Source: a phage
Assembly (NCBI GenBank): GCA_027568095.1
Contig: GCA_027568095.1_4956.1
Reading direction: 5' to 3' (one strand)
Length of the DNA stretch: 58,547 nt
Part shown: piece after piece, positions 38,686-55,445 of the stretch
How positions within the stretch are numbered: the first letter of the stretch is position 1
How the letters are laid out: the number at the start of each line of letters is the position of its first letter
The notes under the pieces: model-generated
Database searches by the model: none
Told to the model about the DNA's origin: nothing
The model's input: the letters and a program-made list of their open reading frames with translations, nothing else
Made by a program: the position numbers and the translations under genes

Positions 38686-39093
38686 CGTTCACCCTCGTTA
38701 AGTGCACGACCACCGCTTTCAAGTGTTACAGGTGGGTTGTCGAACTGACCACGTTGAATAGCAGGTTGCATACCAGCGCCAGTTAATGTAGCTCCACCAA
38801 CACCCATAAAACTACCTAACAAACCGCCACCTGAATCAGCGCCAGTATTAATACGTAAAATAAAATCTTTTTTAAGTTTATTCCAGGCGTCTGCTGACTG
38901 ACTACTGCTGAGTGAGATCGGACCTACTTTAATATCAGTATCGTTGCTGGCAATAGACGCCATATAATCACAGAGAGCGACGCAAATACTGAGAGGATTT
39001 GTATAACCGTTGTCAATGTACCACTGAATTTGTTCATCAGTAACATCAGGGACACTGATCAAATAACGAATACCTTCAACTGTAATAGCCATG
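38682..39093 (-). CDS. head-tail adaptor protein (start at MAITVEG)
   Basis: AGGTGA RBS 4 nt upstream of ATG 39093; track ORF extension to 39266 would read through an intrinsic terminator. Confidence 0.4.
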
Positions 39094-39129: not shown

Positions 39130-39155
39130 CGAAAAAAAGCCGTCTTAAACAGACG
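39130..39155 (-). terminator. intrinsic terminator (GCCGTCT-GTTTAA-GACGGC + T7)
   Basis: Perfect 6-7-bp GC stem followed by TTTTTTT on minus strand. Confidence 0.65.
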
Positions 39156-39720
39156 GCAAATGACTCTGGGTGATAATGATGGTTTTACATAACTGGTCAT
39201 CCACACCTGACGTCCCAACATACCCCTATGCGTGACACGTGAATAACCAGTTATGTAAAACGACACGCAGTTCAGGATGTTTCACAACATGCTTTATCCA
39301 CGATTTGCGGCTTTCCCGCCAGCAAGATAAGGATCACCTCCTTATCAGCGAGTGTTTGGGTTGCAGTGGTTGGTGTTGAACTCCAACTTGAGGCTACCCA
39401 TCCTAGCCCGAAGCTAGGTGCTCACCTCTGAGCGTTAGCGCATCAACCTGCGCATTCACCACAACGATAAGAGCACTGAGATGTATGATAATCGTCGCAG
39501 CACCACTTTAAACAACTCAATGCTCTTACCTGTTGTGTGCCCGTTATTAATCACACCGGGCCAGTGCGCCGAATTTATTTACAAGGAATCGGAAGACCTT
39601 GCTGACTTACAGGCTATTACGCCGCCATCAGAAAACGTTCTTCGTTTGCATTTATCTTTGTGGTCAGTTTCTAAAAAGTCCGCAAAGTCGCCACGAAAAC
39701 TATCTACAACTAACAATAGG
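39156..39720 (-). other. ORF-free, highly structured region inside late operon (candidate noncoding RNA/regulatory element)
   Basis: Stops in all minus frames; 15-bp inverted repeat, UUCG-loop hairpin, 14-nt copy of 16S rRNA 3' end (plus 39329-39342). Confidence 0.3.
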
Positions 39721-40074
39721 TCAAGAATAGTTATATGTCAAGCCTTGTGATTCACACCATTCAGCAGCGGCACTTTTACTACTAAACGATTCTGAATTCA
39801 TCGGCATACCCATAACATAAACGTTATAGGTTTTTGGCGCATCACGTCGAATTTCAGCAGCTGTGGTTGATGCCGATTCTTCGGTTGCTACAGTCACTGG
39901 TTCTTCAACAGTCGCAGTAGCTGGTTCAATGTGGCGCATACGCACAAGGGCATTTAAAACAGCCGGGGTAGCTTTTGATGTTGATACTTTATCGCCAGCG
40001 GACATCTGTTTACCGTTCCATAGCATCGGACGGGTGAAAACATATTTCAGTGACGGATCATATGAATTACGCAT
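39721..40074 (-). CDS. hypothetical head-associated protein (117 aa)
   Basis: GAGGT RBS 7 nt upstream of ATG 40074; directly after capsid-gene terminator. Confidence 0.45.
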   Translation of the reverse strand: MRNSYDPSLKYVFTRPMLWNGKQMSAGDKVSTSKATPAVLNALVRMRHIEPATATVEEPVTVATEESASTTAAEIRRDAPKTYNVYVMGMPMNSESFSSKSAAAEWCESQGLTYNYS

Positions 40075-44415: not shown

Positions 44416-44796
44416 ATGAAGAAACTGATTCTATGCGCAATGTTAACAACCCTGACAGCCTGTGATAACGCTGCTGATGTTGCCAGTCGTAACGTTGCAA
44501 CCGCTGCAGCTAACTTTGAAGTAAATCGTCGTATCGTTTTCTATAACGTTCGTAACGGTGAGTATCTTTTGTCTATCGAAGGTCGTTGTGCCCGTGAGAA
44601 CACTAGCAAAGAGATCGAAATCACCTGTAAAACTGGTCCGAATGACGTTAAGAAACACTTTATGGGGTTAACCACGGAGGTAACTTATTTCATTGAACAA
44701 ACAGACCCTTCACCAACAGATCAGTATCGTTATCGTGTTACGTTTAACCCGATGCAAATTCTCCCGGATCTAAATATCCGTCACCCTGGGGAATAA
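44416..44796 (+). CDS. lipoprotein (signal peptide with lipobox LTAC)
   Basis: MKKLILCAMLTTLTAC N-terminus. Confidence 0.55.
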   Translation: MKKLILCAMLTTLTACDNAADVASRNVATAAANFEVNRRIVFYNVRNGEYLLSIEGRCARENTSKEIEITCKTGPNDVKKHFMGLTTEVTYFIEQTDPSPTDQYRYRVTFNPMQILPDLNIRHPGE

Positions 44797-44799
44797 CCC

Positions 44800-44901
44800 A
44801 TGGGTAAAAAGAAAAACGGTGAACTGGCGAAGAACTTCACACGTCTGGAAACCAACATCAAAATGTCTTATTGTCCGTTCTGCGGGGAGAAACAGGAATG
44901 A
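44800..44901 (+). CDS. small protein (33 aa) with CPFCG motif
   Basis: GGGGA RBS 8 nt upstream; below track cutoff. Confidence 0.3.
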   Translation: MGKKKNGELAKNFTRLETNIKMSYCPFCGEKQE

Positions 44902-45047
44902 CCATTGATAAGCGTAAAAAACGGCGTGCACATAGAAAAGCCGCTAAAAATCTTTTGAAAAATGGCGGTTTGTTTAACGGTTTTAGTGCCCCCGGTTCAA
45001 CGTTCTTCTGCATTGCTCAATGGCACTTAAAACAGTCGCGTGTTTAA
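44898..45047 (+). CDS. small basic protein (49 aa)
   Basis: ATGA overlap with upstream small ORF. Confidence 0.3.
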   Translation: MTIDKRKKRRAHRKAAKNLLKNGGLFNGFSAPGSTFFCIAQWHLKQSRV

Positions 45048-53824: not shown

Positions 53825-54100
53825 ATGGAATACATGTACATTGCTTTTTCATTTCTGTTAATGATTGTTGTCGTTATTACAACTGAGAAAAAAGAACAAG
53901 GGGTGATAGGGTTAGCAGTTGCTCTGATTCGTGTTCTTTCAATCATGTTGCTGGTAACCAGTTTTTCAATTGCTTTTGACATCGTGGAATTACAAAGCGA
54001 TTATTACGGTTTTGTGAAAATTCAACATCAACTAACATACGCCGTCATATTCGGTTTAGGTTCTGTTAGCCTCGCTGTTCTTTCATCTTTCAGACGTTGA
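53825..54100 (+). CDS. small membrane protein (about 3 TM)
   Basis: Three hydrophobic segments. Confidence 0.45.
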   Translation: MEYMYIAFSFLLMIVVVITTEKKEQGVIGLAVALIRVLSIMLLVTSFSIAFDIVELQSDYYGFVKIQHQLTYAVIFGLGSVSLAVLSSFRR

Positions 54101-54125
54101 AAAAAGCCCCGGAACTGTCCGGGGC
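54100..54125 (-). terminator. intrinsic terminator (GCCCCGGA-CAGT-TCCGGGGC + T6) ending the TerL-portal accessory operon
   Basis: Perfect 8-bp stem; T-run on minus strand. Confidence 0.55.
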
Positions 54126-54312
54126 AAAGTCGATCAGTAAAATACAAAAGGCCTAAACGTGAACGCGGAAAACTGTAACGGTACTATGAACGGACTGGTA
54201 AACCCTCTGAAAACGGCCTGAGTATGTGCAATCTGTGACTGAAGAAGACCAAATTGCGTAGCAGGACTTCCCAGACAACACGATGTTCTACAACACATAA
54301 TAACCCCCTTTT

Positions 54313-55088: not shown

Positions 55089-55445
55089 TTACATCTTTTT
55101 AAGCGCGTGGATACAGGCTGCAGCCAGATCCGTTAGCTCTTTTTTAATACCAGACGTCGAACCTTCGGTTTTTTCTTCCATCAGTTCGCGATATTCCATT
55201 TCAACAATGGACATCATCCCGCCGGGCTTATCGTGGTACGACGCCCAAGTCGAAGGAGGGTTATCCATACGTGCTTTAACATGGGCCATAGCTGAACCAT
55301 GTTCGCCAGCATAGCTATCATGATGAAATACTCCCATTGCTGGATGATGCCCGTGGTGATAATGATGGTGATGATGAATCTCTACATCTTCCTCTTCATC
55401 GTCATCATCGTCTTTCTTAATAACGTAATACGGTTTGTAATGCAT
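55089..55445 (-). CDS. histidine-rich acidic protein (118 aa; DDDDDEEEDVEIHHHHHYHHGHHP)
   Basis: AGGAGA RBS 7 nt upstream of ATG 55445 (track ORF begins at an upstream TTG). Confidence 0.5.
   Translation of the reverse strand: MHYKPYYVIKKDDDDDEEEDVEIHHHHHYHHGHHPAMGVFHHDSYAGEHGSAMAHVKARMDNPPSTWASYHDKPGGMMSIVEMEYRELMEEKTEGSTSGIKKELTDLAAACIHALKKM

What the first reader, a model, noticed from the sequence alone, without database searches (positions are those of the whole stretch)
39156..39720. 560-bp ORF-free, highly structured region inside the late operon carrying a 14-nt copy of the 16S rRNA 3' end
Between the small gene ending at 39721 and the intrinsic terminator at 39130-39155 there is no credible ORF on the transcribed (minus) strand; stops are dense in all frames. 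The stretch is packed with secondary-structure signals: a perfect 15-bp inverted repeat (TTTTACATAACTGGT at 39181-39195 and ACCAGTTATGTAAAA at 39245-39259), consecutive GC-rich hairpins on the minus strand (GCGCA-GGTTGA-TGCGC; GCTCA-GAGG-TGAGC; CCTAGC-TTCG-GCTAGG with a UUCG tetraloop), and plus 39329-39342 GGATCACCTCCTTA, identical to the 3' terminus of E. coli-type 16S rRNA. A minus-strand transcript would therefore carry UAAGGAGGUGAUCC, a 14-nt perfect complement of the anti-Shine-Dalgarno sequence, with no good start codon behind it (only a TTG-initiated 17-codon frame). It could be a stable noncoding RNA, a ribosome-binding decoy/standby site, an mRNA processing or stability element, or a decayed gene.
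Basis: seen in the sequence. Interest (0 to 1): 0.65.

Follow-up and report, generated by a model that had tools for sequence, protein, structure and literature searches.

The report
Headless tmRNA copy carried by phages
The "empty" 560-bp stretch is a small non-coding RNA unit whose first 166 bases are an unannotated, tRNA-end-less copy of the bacterial ribosome-rescue RNA (tmRNA). It still encodes a 10-residue degradation tag, is complementary to the host's own tmRNA, and occurs in about 700 sequenced enterobacterial phage genomes including Felix O1.

Summary
The stretch has no conserved ORF, is packed with hairpins, and holds the only 14-nt copy of the 16S 3' end in the window (39331-39344).

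A sigma-70 promoter (39741-39713, minus strand) starts a unit that ends at the terminator (39157-39132). Its first 166 nt (39704-39539) derive from tmRNA:
- a resume context AUAAAU-GCA
- a 10-codon tag frame, ANEERFLMAA plus stop
- a hairpin that carries the stop codon
- an H-type pseudoknot and a terminal hairpin, all supported by covariation

There is no acceptor stem, T-arm or CCA. ARAGORN and Rfam find no tRNA-like piece anywhere in the 58.5-kb window.

The module is a swappable cassette. It matches 704 phage records and 146 of 5426 complete E. coli genomes, and is almost never annotated. Across 24 distinct variants the tag frame behaves like a coding sequence: always 10 codons, and changes favour the third codon position.

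The 5' 45 nt are complementary to host tmRNA nt 56-108 (-41.7 kcal/mol; none of 1882 natural control segments was as strong).

Best reading, inferred: the RNA docks on host tmRNA and either substitutes its own tag template or blocks trans-translation. The rest of the region resembles the phage lambda late leader.

The parts
39713..39741 (-). Sigma-70-type promoter: TTGACA (39741-39736), 17-nt spacer, TATTGT (39718-39713). The predicted start is about 39707-39705, 1-3 nt before the module.
   Evidence: 10 of 12 matches. It is conserved at the same place in Bas82, PDP46, AVIO78A (annotated there as a promoter), 9NA, Sasha and Carvaje. Equivalent promoters sit directly upstream of the module in Bas78 and in Felix O1-type copies.
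39539..39704 (-). tmRNA-derived 'tag module' (166 nt), a cassette without an acceptor stem
   Evidence: Sub-threshold Rfam hits go only to tmRNA families (beta_tmRNA E 2.4e-5, tmRNA_permuted E 1e-3). An HMM of 26 copies hits an ARAGORN-called permuted tmRNA at E 2e-9. The core matches 704 phage records. In Sasha, Bas82 and AVIO78A an unrelated leader takes its place.
39660..39704 (-). 5' domain, complementary to host tmRNA nt 56-108. The seed UAGUUUUCGU (39702-39693) is the exact complement of the ssrA segment ACGAAAACUA, which falls within codons 3-6 (D-E-N-Y).
   Evidence: RNAduplex gives -41.7 kcal/mol. None of 1882 natural 363-nt control segments is as low (best -37.4, z -4.9). Homologous 5' regions of real tmRNAs give only -21 to -25. 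The seed is kept at 7-11 nt in all 26 variants.
39617..39649 (-). Tag reading frame GCA AAC GAA GAA CGU UUU CUG AUG GCG GCG UAA (ANEERFLMAA plus stop). It is preceded by AUAAAU (39655-39650) and followed by a second stop, UAG.
   Evidence: All 37 copies first collected, and all 7 later ones, keep exactly 10 codons plus a stop (TAA, TAG or TGA). Among 24 distinct ORFs, nucleotide changes by codon position are 19/17/41. Codon changes are 25 synonymous to 30 non-synonymous.
39602..39631 (-). Hairpin that carries the stop codon in its loop, like tmRNA helix 5
   Evidence: Covariation CUGA/UCAG to CUGG/CCAG; all cells of the outer helix are paired.
39569..39601 (-). H-type pseudoknot: stem 1 CAAGG/CCUUG, stem 2 CCGA/UCGG
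   Evidence: Compensatory changes occur at 3 of 5 and 3 of 4 pairs; 98.5% and 94.2% of cells are paired.
39539..39561 (-). Terminal hairpin GCCCG/CGGGC with a conserved 13-nt loop, GUGUGAUUAAUAA. It sits where the T-arm sits in tmRNA, but it is not a T-loop.
   Evidence: All 4 scored stem pairs show double changes, and the loop is nearly invariant.
39459..39537 (-). Long stalk: CACAACAGGUAAGAGCA, a hypervariable insert, then UGCUCUUAUCGUUGUGG. It is homologous to the lambda late leader just after tR'.
   Evidence: 17-nt arms, 88% complementary. The arms recur as cassette boundaries around tRNA-like inserts and around the tag module.
39369..39453 (-). Four short hairpins (39453-39438, 39433-39420, 39418-39402 with a UUCG loop, 39387-39369)
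   Evidence: Read from the sequence. The first is conserved in the E. coli prophage locus L009 and in phage cp21. The others occur only in close relatives.
39277..39346 (-). Conserved structured element: a hairpin holding UAAGGAGGUGAUCC (39346-39326), then two small hairpins (39320-39307, and 39291-39277 with a GUGA loop)
   Evidence: It is conserved from Sasha to 9NA and Carvaje with one compensatory pair. A similar element follows the tRNA clusters of Felix O1-like phages.
39182..39261 (-). Long inverted-repeat stalk (23-nt arms, 34-nt loop)
   Evidence: It is shared with Sasha, Bas82, AVIO78A and PDP46, and is absent from 9NA and Carvaje. Its function was not addressed.
39132..39157 (-). 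Intrinsic terminator that ends the unit

Best explanation
**What it is (shown).** Region 39741-39132 on the minus strand is a self-contained non-coding transcription unit set inside the late operon. It runs from a host-type promoter to an intrinsic terminator. It is assembled from RNA cassettes that enterobacterial phages exchange.

The first cassette (39704-39539) is a shortened descendant of tmRNA. It keeps these parts:
- the sequence just upstream of the resume codon (AUA at -6 to -4, as in E. coli)
- a 10-codon degradation-tag frame
- a stop codon in a hairpin loop
- one pseudoknot
- a terminal hairpin

It has lost the aminoacylatable tRNA-like end. The phage encodes no substitute for it.

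**How it most likely works (inferred).** The 45-nt 5' domain pairs with the host cell's own tmRNA across nt 56-108. That span covers the 3' half of pseudoknot 1, the A-rich linker, the resume codon and codons 3-6. The domain skips the segment GCAAACGA, which the host and phage frames share, so the RNA does not pair with itself.

The host tmRNA with SmpB supplies the alanine-charged tRNA-like domain. The duplex buries the host resume codon. It also places the phage resume codon about 10 nt beyond a helix, the same spacing as after pseudoknot 1 in the native RNA.

Rescued ribosomes would then translate the phage tag (ANEERFLMAA here; ANDDVVLMAA, ANDNTFLAVA and others elsewhere) instead of ANDENYALAA. 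In effect this is a two-piece tmRNA whose acceptor piece is borrowed from the host.

**What would follow (speculative).** The tag differs at the residues I recall as contacting ClpX (host LAA; phage MAA, AVA or AAA). The fate of proteins from stalled ribosomes would therefore be re-programmed during infection.

**The rest of the unit.** The stalk, the hairpins, the Shine-Dalgarno-like hairpin and the long inverted repeat are probably processing and stability elements. They match the lambda late leader in part, and are not part of the tag mechanism.

**Confidence by step.**
- tmRNA-derived functional RNA: about 0.9
- tag frame is translated: about 0.7
- acts through pairing with host tmRNA: about 0.5
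- template substitution specifically: about 0.35
For: **Homology to tmRNA.** Rfam hits go only to tmRNA families, in several divergent copies. An HMM of the family hits an ARAGORN-called permuted tmRNA at E 2e-9, and beta-proteobacterial tmRNAs at 4e-4, on the same strand at the tag region.

**Coding-type selection on the tag.**
- Every copy examined has 10 codons, and the stop is kept as TAA, TAG or TGA.
- Third-position changes dominate (19/17/41).
- The last Ala codon shows 9 synonymous and 0 non-synonymous changes.
- TH33 and Fifi44 differ by two synonymous changes only.

**Structure.** 90.9% of cells are paired, against about 40% in slid controls. 13 pairs show double changes. 0 of 500 shuffles reach the observed value on four of the five measures.

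**No tRNA-like domain.**
- ARAGORN finds none in the window or in 37 copies.
- An Rfam E-value scan of the whole window finds no tRNA-like hit.
- Conservation starts at GAUAG, right after a promoter, in four independent contexts.

**Complementarity to host tmRNA.**
- The duplex energy is -41.7 kcal/mol, with 0 of 1882 natural control segments as low.
- It is specific: -21 to -25 for homologous tmRNA 5' regions, for the L020 tmRNA and for the module's own remainder.
- It is strongest with Escherichia and other Enterobacterales among 120 ssrA genes.
- The seed is retained in all variants.
- Erwinia and Pantoea phages have A where E. coli and Yersinia phages of the same family have U. That matches ACGAAAACUU in a Pantoea ssrA.
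- The hypervariable nucleotide is the predicted bulge.

**Placement.** The module lies among tRNA genes in the same orientation (Sf14, St11Ph5). In lambdoid prophages it lies downstream of Q/pR'-tR', so it would be silent in lysogens.
Against: - No experiment shows that the RNA exists, pairs with tmRNA, or that its tag is ever added to a protein.
- Trans-translation from a template held only by base pairing to a complete tmRNA has no precedent.
- The extended pairing is not universal. Felix O1-type, L046, L091 and L053 copies keep mainly the 10-11-nt seed (-23 to -28 kcal/mol).
- A perfect complement of 10 nt or more to ssrA occurs in 3.8% of natural 166-nt segments, and in 0.5% within nt 79-120.
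- Mononucleotide shuffles of the U/G-rich query nearly reach the observed energy (best -41.3; z -3.8).
- At predicted paired positions, variant states break pairing more often than they keep it (13 against 7). Only where a pairing-preserving option exists do 7 of 10 keep it.
- The seed resembles the D-loop analogue of real tmRNAs (UAGUUUCGAC in L020). It could be conserved for SmpB binding rather than for pairing.
- The phage tags still look like ordinary degradation tags, so the benefit of swapping them is unclear.
- The ssrA sequences of E. amylovora and P. agglomerans were not available, so the phage-host covariation is unconfirmed.
Confidence: 0.4

Rival explanations
1. Antisense inhibitor or sponge of host tmRNA. 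The 5' domain pairs with SsrA at the resume codon and first codons, and simply blocks trans-translation or triggers cleavage of SsrA. The tag frame is inherited baggage, or helps the RNA mimic tmRNA.
For: The complementarity evidence is the same. As I recall, prophage-encoded anti-sRNAs that pair with core-genome RNAs are known in pathogenic E. coli. Phage DS6A carries a tRNA-like-domain-only tmRNA, and a similar molecule inhibits tmRNA (PMC4131195).
Against: It does not explain the fixed 10-codon length, the retained stop, the third-position bias, or the 9:0 synonymous changes at the last codon. It also does not explain the conserved resume context and stop-codon hairpin.
Confidence: 0.2
2. 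Protein or ribosome decoy that needs no pairing. The headless tmRNA keeps the elbow-like 5' motif, the mRNA-like domain and a pseudoknot. It titrates SmpB, ribosomal protein S1, RNase R or rescue-competent ribosomes.
For: The 5' motif resembles the tmRNA D-loop analogue. A short pairing, GCG/CGC, brings it next to the terminal hairpin as in a tRNA-like domain. A TLD-only RNA titrating SmpB is the published precedent.
Against: The T-loop and acceptor stem are absent. The codon-level conservation of the tag is unexplained. So is the complementarity specific to enterobacterial tmRNA.
Confidence: 0.1
3. Coding piece of a true two-piece tmRNA, whose acceptor piece is another RNA that I did not recognise. 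Candidates are the odd tRNA-like genes next to it in many phages, or a host tRNA-like RNA.
For: The closest bona fide relative is a permuted two-piece tmRNA. Modules often sit among tRNA and tRNA-like genes. One neighbour in Felix O1-like contigs has G3:U70, A73 and CCA. Rfam's permuted-tmRNA model joins the upstream tRNA to the module at 29-30 bits.
Against: The coding piece of a two-piece tmRNA must carry the 5' acceptor strand. Here conservation and the promoter start after that position. The window phage has no tRNA-like gene at all. The neighbours differ from phage to phage.
Confidence: 0.1
4. Non-functional relic. A tmRNA fragment was trapped between recombination-prone linker sequences and spreads by hitch-hiking.
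For: The module is a cassette bounded by repeated arms. It is present or absent among close relatives.
Against: It is conserved in 704 records of at least seven phage families, down to about 70% identity. It shows compensatory changes in four helices and an intact frame in every copy examined.
Confidence: 0.07
5. One reading: the key element is the UAAGGAGGUGAUCC site, acting as a ribosome-binding decoy, a standby site or a leader for a mini-ORF.
For: The 14-mer is unique in the window. It is conserved in relatives, and similar sites follow tRNA clusters in Felix O1-like phages.
Against: Half of the site is paired in an 8-bp hairpin. Sasha has a mismatch in it. The downstream 17-codon frame evolves like RNA structure. 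It may still have a role of its own, which I did not test.
Confidence: 0.08

Closest known systems
One-piece tmRNA (SsrA; Rfam RF00023, RF01850)
   Same: GCA resume codon with AUA at -6 to -4. A 10-codon tag AN(D/E)... ending in a hydrophobic, Ala-rich C-terminus. A stop codon in a hairpin loop, followed by a pseudoknot. Sequence similarity is detectable by covariance model and by HMM.
   Different: 166 nt against 363. There is no acceptor stem, G3:U70, T-loop or CCA. Pseudoknots 1, 3 and 4 are missing. The 5' part is complementary to host tmRNA instead of forming helix 2. It scores 16-31 bits against gathering thresholds of 47-84.
Two-piece (circularly permuted) tmRNA, including phage-borne ones (Rfam RF04321; phage Melnitz, PMC9004378; locus L020 here)
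   Same: The template and the acceptor function lie on separate RNAs held together by base pairing. L020 is the closest sequence relative, with tag ANDERFLMAA against ANEERFLMAA here.
   Different: True coding pieces begin with the 5' acceptor strand and are co-transcribed with their acceptor piece. This module has neither. Its proposed partner would be the complete tmRNA of the host, which is not a known arrangement.
tRNA-like-domain-only tmRNA of mycobacteriophage DS6A (PMC4131195, PMC11915505)
   Same: A phage-encoded partial tmRNA, presumed to interfere with host trans-translation.
   Different: It is the mirror image. DS6A keeps the tRNA-like domain and lacks the tag frame. This module keeps the tag frame and lacks the tRNA-like domain.
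Prophage-encoded anti-sRNAs of pathogenic E. coli (AgvB, AsxR; recalled from memory, not checked here)
   Same: Phage-borne RNAs from the late region that act by pairing with a conserved core-genome non-coding RNA.
   Different: Those target Hfq-dependent regulatory sRNAs and carry no template function.
Phage lambda late leader downstream of tR' (NC_001416 about 44790-44960)
   Same: The stalk arms CACAACAGGTAAGAGCA / GTGCTCTTTCCGTTGTG and the CAACCCAAAC segment are shared.
   Different: Lambda has no tag module. The RNase III processing reported for that leader is from my memory (Daniels et al. 1988) and was not verified here.

Membership tests
tmRNA (SsrA) | tRNA-like domain: acceptor stem with G3:U70, T-arm with a T-loop, 3' CCA, chargeable with alanine | tested here: not met
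   ARAGORN -m finds no tmRNA in the window or in 37 copies. No sequence is conserved 5' of GAUAG or 3' of the terminal hairpin. The candidate stem GUUGUAG/CUGCAAC was rejected because its 3' strand is also present in relatives that lack the module.
tmRNA (SsrA) | Tag reading frame without a start codon, beginning at a GCN resume codon and encoding a degradation tag ending in Ala-rich residues, followed by a stop | tested here: met
   AN[DE]xxx[LR][AMV][AV]A plus a stop in every copy, with coding-type substitution patterns.
tmRNA (SsrA) | Stop codon presented in helix 5, followed by pseudoknots | tested here: met
   the stop-codon hairpin and one H-type pseudoknot show compensatory changes. Only one pseudoknot is present, rather than three downstream ones.
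tmRNA (SsrA) | Reaches the Rfam gathering score of a tmRNA family | tested here: not met
   16-31 bits against thresholds of 47-84.
tmRNA (SsrA) | Binds SmpB and enters stalled ribosomes | not testable with these tools
   Needs biochemistry.
Two-piece tmRNA coding piece | Begins with the 5' acceptor strand and pairs with a co-encoded acceptor piece | tested here: not met
   The promoter places the 5' end at GAUAG. No acceptor piece is found in the window.
Trans-acting antisense RNA against host tmRNA (proposed, not an established family) | Conserved single-stranded seed complementary to an accessible part of the target, beyond chance and specific to the host lineage | tested here: inconclusive
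   - For: and the Erwinia/Pantoea seed variant.
- Against or weak: and the short-type copies.
- The seed is unpaired in the predicted fold of the module.
Protein-coding gene (decayed or small) | A frame that stays open, with coding-type conservation across homologues | tested here: not met
   stops in every frame on both strands in most copies; the 17-codon frame.

The most novel reading that the evidence does not exclude
Phages of Enterobacterales carry a parasitic 'template piece' that converts the host's own tmRNA into a heterologous two-piece tmRNA. It docks by about 40 bp on SsrA, hides the host resume codon and offers its own. Ribosome rescue during infection then writes a phage-chosen tag onto incomplete proteins. 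This would be a new way for a virus to take over a translation quality-control pathway. It would also be the first case of trans-translation from a template supplied in trans.
Probability: 0.3. Interest if true: 0.95.

Novelty: new variant of a known kind. Interest (0 to 1): 0.85.

Why it matters
**An unrecognised RNA gene.** tmRNA surveys of phage genomes rely on detecting the tRNA-like domain. One ARAGORN survey found tmRNA in 402 of 18,146 phage genomes (PMC9004378). Such surveys cannot see this element. It is nevertheless present in classic and therapeutically used phage groups (Felix O1-like, Kuttervirus, T1/Jersey-like siphoviruses, N4-like podoviruses, Chaseviridae) and in Shiga-toxin-type lambdoid prophages. 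It is usually unannotated, or covered by spurious 'hypothetical protein' calls. At the least, a widespread conserved phage RNA gene has gone unrecognised.

**If the pairing with SsrA is real.** Phages would be manipulating ribosome rescue directly. That bears on three questions:
- why some phages depend on trans-translation
- how phages cope with defences that cut mRNA or tRNA
- what tmRNA minimally needs in order to work

The idea is directly testable with a plasmid-borne module, a non-stop reporter and mass spectrometry.

Tried and rejected
1. **Known RNA family or tRNA.** Rfam at gathering thresholds and ARAGORN on the window found nothing.

2. **A complete tmRNA with a non-canonical tRNA-like domain.** I paired GUUGUAG (5') with CUGCAAC-CCA (3', about 39368), next to a T-arm-like hairpin GUUGG-AGUUCAACA-CCAAC. 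I rejected it for three reasons:
   - The 3' strand and hairpin region belong to the lambda-like leader, and are also present in Bas82 and Sasha, which lack the module.
   - The 5' strand lies upstream of the predicted transcription start.
   - No G3:U70 pair is present.

3. **Permuted arrangement with an upstream acceptor piece.** Upstream sequences differ in every context: a promoter, a stalk arm or a tRNA.

4. **Protein gene on the plus strand** (89-aa ORF; other records annotate hypothetical proteins here). The frame is not conserved.

5. **The +1 frame opened by the AUG inside AUAAAUGCA.** Its length and sequence are not conserved (read).

6. **H-type pseudoknot between the terminal-hairpin loop GUGUG and downstream CACAC.** It is supported in some copies only, so I left it out.

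7. **Complementarity as a by-product of homology.** Controls with the 5' regions of E. coli and L020 tmRNA give background energies.

8. **Confirming the phage-host covariation with Erwinia amylovora ssrA.** The single genome scan returned Pantoea and other Erwiniaceae but not that species. A literature search for the tag string found nothing.

9. **Literature searches** for the tag peptides, for tmRNA-like phage RNAs and for anti-tmRNA RNAs found no prior description.
Full report
**1. Setting**

The window is a Sashavirus-like siphophage genome. The region is 98.5% identical to Sashavirus BDX09P1, and the module is 100% identical to that of E. coli phage PJ16. The finding lies between a small gene just downstream of the major capsid gene (stop at 39721) and the next late gene (ATG at 39092). 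All of these are on the minus strand.

**2.

The 14-mer GGATCACCTCCTTA is at 39331-39344. It is unique in the window, and none of 100 shuffles reproduces it. The inverted repeat, the three G+C-rich hairpins and the terminator are present, with coordinates 1-2 nt off.

No ORF is credible. Minus-strand ORFs are at most 45 aa with TTG or GTG starts. The 89-aa plus-strand ORF is not conserved in homologues.

Two features change the picture:
- A near-consensus sigma-70 promoter, TTGACA-17-TATTGT (39741-39713), is conserved in all relatives and is annotated as a promoter in AVIO78A.
- The 14-mer is embedded in a perfect 8-bp hairpin.

The region is therefore a promoter-to-terminator non-coding unit inside the late operon.

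**3. A widely shared element**

A sensitive blastn search showed that about 165-270 nt of the region (39438-39705) is conserved at 70-92% identity in hundreds of phages of unrelated groups. The 164-nt core alone matches 704 of 50,697 phage records. These include Felix O1, Kuttervirus and Taipeivirus (Ackermannviridae), Gamaleyavirus and Pollockvirus (N4-like), Mooglevirus, Chaseviridae, and many 45-48-kb siphoviruses. It also matches 146 of 5426 complete E. coli genomes. It is nearly always unannotated.

Its orientation matches that of flanking tRNA genes in Sf14 and St11Ph5. In a lambdoid prophage it lies between Q/pR'-tR' and the holin gene.

**4. The element derives from tmRNA**

A permissive Rfam scan hit only tmRNA families, on the minus strand over 39568-39711: beta_tmRNA at E 2.4e-5 and tmRNA_permuted at E 1e-3, both below gathering scores. 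Divergent copies again hit tmRNA models.

The match covers AUAAAU-GCA AAC GAA GAA CGU UUU CUG AUG GCG GCG UAA UAG, which reads ANEERFLMAA followed by two stops.

One locus pulled from IMG/VR, L020, holds an ARAGORN-called permuted tmRNA with tag ANDERFLMAA. An HMM built from 26 copies of the phage element hits it at E 2e-9, and hits beta-proteobacterial tmRNAs at 4e-4, on the same strand at the tag region.

**5. The tag frame behaves as a translated frame**

All 37 copies first collected, and seven more from Chaseviridae and Roufvirus, have exactly 10 codons followed by a stop, which appears as TAA, TAG or TGA.

Along a minimum spanning tree of 24 distinct ORFs:
- Nucleotide changes fall 19/17/41 on codon positions 1/2/3.
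- Codon changes are 25 synonymous to 30 non-synonymous.
- The final Ala codon shows 9 synonymous and 0 non-synonymous changes.

E. coli phage TH33 and Erwinia phage Fifi44 differ by two synonymous changes in the tag, while their flanks have diverged.

The tags (ANDDVVLMAA, ANDNTFLAVA, ANEEMYLAVA, ANDEQFLAVA, ANDNVFLAVA, ANDSEMRVAA and others) look like natural SsrA tags.

The three bases at -6 to -4 before the resume codon (AUA) equal those of E. coli, where they are A84, U85 and A86. From memory of the tmRNA literature, U85 and A86 help set the frame.

**6. Structure**

On an alignment of 26 copies, four elements are supported by compensatory changes:
- a hairpin that presents the stop codon
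- an H-type pseudoknot (stem 1 CAAGG/CCUUG, stem 2 CCGA/UCGG)
- a terminal hairpin with a nearly invariant 13-nt loop
- a short 3-bp long-range pairing, for which the support is weaker

In total 90.9% of cells are paired, against 36-44% when partners are slid. 13 pairs show double changes. None of 500 shuffles reaches the observed value on four of the five measures.

**7. No tRNA-like domain**

- ARAGORN finds no tmRNA in any copy.
- The whole 58.5-kb window has no tRNA-like hit even at E up to 5.
- Conservation begins at GAUAGUUUUCG. That motif lies 1-3 nt after the predicted transcription start in the window, and right behind a promoter-like -10 element in Bas78, in Felix O1-type copies and in another lineage.
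- Conservation ends at the terminal hairpin. In Sf14 a tRNA gene follows about 50 nt later.

My initial candidate acceptor stem was rejected, because its 3' strand belongs to sequence also present in relatives that lack the module.

**8. The module is a cassette**

Sasha, Bas82, PDP46, AVIO78A and 9NA share the promoter and the downstream parts of the unit. After the -10 element they carry a different leader of about 100 nt. In the window, PJ16 and BDX09P1, that leader is replaced by the tag module, with the junction right after TATTGTTA.

In many genomes the module is bounded by two complementary arms (GUGCUCUUUCC... and ...CACAACAGGUAAGAGCA). Elsewhere these arms enclose hypervariable, often tRNA-like, inserts. 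The same arms occur in phage lambda just after tR'. From memory, RNase III processing sites were mapped in that leader; I did not verify this.

**9. Complementarity to host tmRNA**

The invariant 5' motif UAGUUUUCGU is the exact complement of ACGAAAACUA in E. coli ssrA (codons D-E-N-Y). RNAduplex pairs module nt 1-44 with ssrA nt 56-108 at -41.7 kcal/mol in five collinear blocks.

Controls:
- 300 mononucleotide shuffles average -29.1, and the best reaches -41.3 (z -3.8).
- 1882 natural 363-nt segments average -23.9. The best is -37.4 and none reaches the observed value (z -4.9).
- The homologous 5' regions of E. coli tmRNA and of L020 tmRNA give -21.5 and -25.2 against the same target.
- The module against L020 tmRNA gives -24.9. 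Against its own remainder it gives -24.8.

Among 120 gammaproteobacterial ssrA genes, the energy is best for Escherichia. It declines through other Enterobacterales and Vibrio to Pasteurellaceae, whose tag codons differ.

All 26 variants keep 7-11 nt of perfect seed. Copies that lose the 5' U gain a 3' C.

By eye, the domain reads as the reverse complement of ssrA 56-108 with two 5-nt deletions. One deletion removes what would pair with GCAAACGA, the segment that the host and phage frames share. This would prevent self-pairing (inference).

In Chaseviridae, phages of E. coli and Yersinia have ...GUAGUUUUC..., while phages of Erwinia and Pantoea have ...GAAGUUUUCGU. The latter is the complement of ACGAAAACUU, found in the ssrA of Pantoea sp. 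B65 (tag ANDENFAPAALAA). Of the 120 ssrA genes, that one pairs best with the Loessnervirus domain.

Caveats:
- Short-type copies keep little beyond the seed.
- A complement of 10 nt or more to ssrA is not rare by chance: 3.8% of segments overall, and 0.5% in the linker/ORF part.
- Substitutions at predicted paired positions are only modestly biased towards keeping pairs.
- The seed also resembles the tmRNA D-loop analogue.
- The ssrA of the actual Erwinia and Pantoea hosts was not obtained.

**10. Interpretation**

Three facts need reconciling: a tag frame under coding selection, no way to be charged, and a host-specific antisense domain.

The simplest reconciliation is that the RNA works together with the host's tmRNA. 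It docks on the host RNA, hides the host resume codon, and offers its own at a similar distance from a helix. In effect this is a two-piece tmRNA with a borrowed acceptor piece. From memory, pseudoknot 1 can be replaced by a hairpin in E. coli tmRNA, which makes the geometry plausible.

The rivals are pure inhibition of SsrA, a protein decoy, an unrecognised acceptor piece, and a relic. I rank each below this because it leaves at least one of the three facts unexplained. None of the steps after 'the RNA is tmRNA-derived and conserved' has been shown.

**11. The rest of the region**

- The stalk at 39537-39459 and the segment at 39368-39346 are homologous to the lambda late leader.
- The Shine-Dalgarno-like hairpin plus two small hairpins (39346-39277) are conserved from Sasha to 9NA and Carvaje, with one compensatory pair. 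A similar element follows tRNA clusters in Felix O1-like phages. Its function is open.
- The long inverted repeat (39261-39182) is shared only with close relatives.

**12. Novelty**

Complete tmRNAs are known in phages, both one-piece and two-piece, and so is a tRNA-like-domain-only form in phage DS6A. I found no description of a tag-encoding form without an acceptor stem. I found no trace of these tag peptides, and no report of a phage RNA aimed at SsrA, in the searchable library. The element is not in Rfam 15.

I rate it a new variant of a known kind. The proposed mechanism would be new in kind if confirmed.

Noticed in passing
L105 1894-1972 and the same gene in L095 (Felix O1-like IMG/VR contigs): Directly after the tag module lies an odd tRNA-like gene. 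Its acceptor stem is CGGGGCG/CGCCUCG, which gives G3:U70, and it has A73 and an encoded CCA (alanine identity marks). Its anticodon loop is CUUCUAA, and it has no obvious D-arm. ARAGORN does not call it. The Rfam tRNA model scores it at 31.7 bits, just above threshold.
   Followed up: partly
L005 (St11Ph5), about 1846-1915 and 1968-2040; L007 (S115), about 1664-1797: Several tRNA-like sequences have T-arms and ACCA or UCCA ends that ARAGORN does not call. One is a unit of about 125-135 nt that starts 7 nt after the tag module in Kuttervirus S115. Its T-arm plus AAACGGCUCCA is also present in Taipeivirus cp21.
   Followed up: partly
window 39459-39537; L009 3928-3991 and 4176-4281; L046, L028, L101; lambda L130 about 390-465: Two complementary arms (CACAACAGGTAAGAGCA and GTGCTCTTTCCGTTGTGG) recur as boundaries of hypervariable inserts in late leaders and tRNA arrays of unrelated phages. 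They look like shared processing stalks or recombination linkers. The right arm contains TGCTCTTT, which resembles the boxA antitermination motif (from memory).
   Followed up: partly
window 39277-39346; L008 about 1830-1880; L121, L105: A near-perfect anti-Shine-Dalgarno complement (UAAGGAGGUGAUCC or UAAGGAGGUGGUC), followed by a CAUGUU...AACAUG hairpin, recurs at the 3' end of RNA-gene clusters in Sasha/9NA-like and Felix O1-like phages.
   Followed up: partly
Records PJ16 (PJ16_048), Bas78 (Bas78_0056/0057), PDP46 (PDP46_0046), Bas82 (Bas82_0039): Annotated 'hypothetical proteins' overlap the tag module or the non-coding unit, some on the opposite strand. The annotated start of Bas82_0039 extends upstream into the non-coding unit, past the start used in Sasha. 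These calls are probably spurious.
   Followed up: partly
window 55343-55412 (+) and 54095-54164 (+): Weak sub-threshold Rfam hits: mir-598 (35 bits, E 0.001) and STnc480 (32.6 bits, E 0.55). They probably just mark hairpins.
   Followed up: no
L020 7154-7563 (IMG/VR 3300027808_000571): A complete permuted tmRNA on a viral contig carries the tag ANDERFLMAA. It is the closest bona fide relative of the module's tag region, and a possible representative of the source lineage.
   Followed up: partly
L261 and L262 (Roufvirus pIS4-A and pYD38-A): Phages recorded as infecting Aeromonas and Vibrio carry identical E. coli-type modules, with a TAG stop, next to tRNA-Arg and tRNA-Met. The module lies on the strand opposite to the flanking tail genes.
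   Followed up: no
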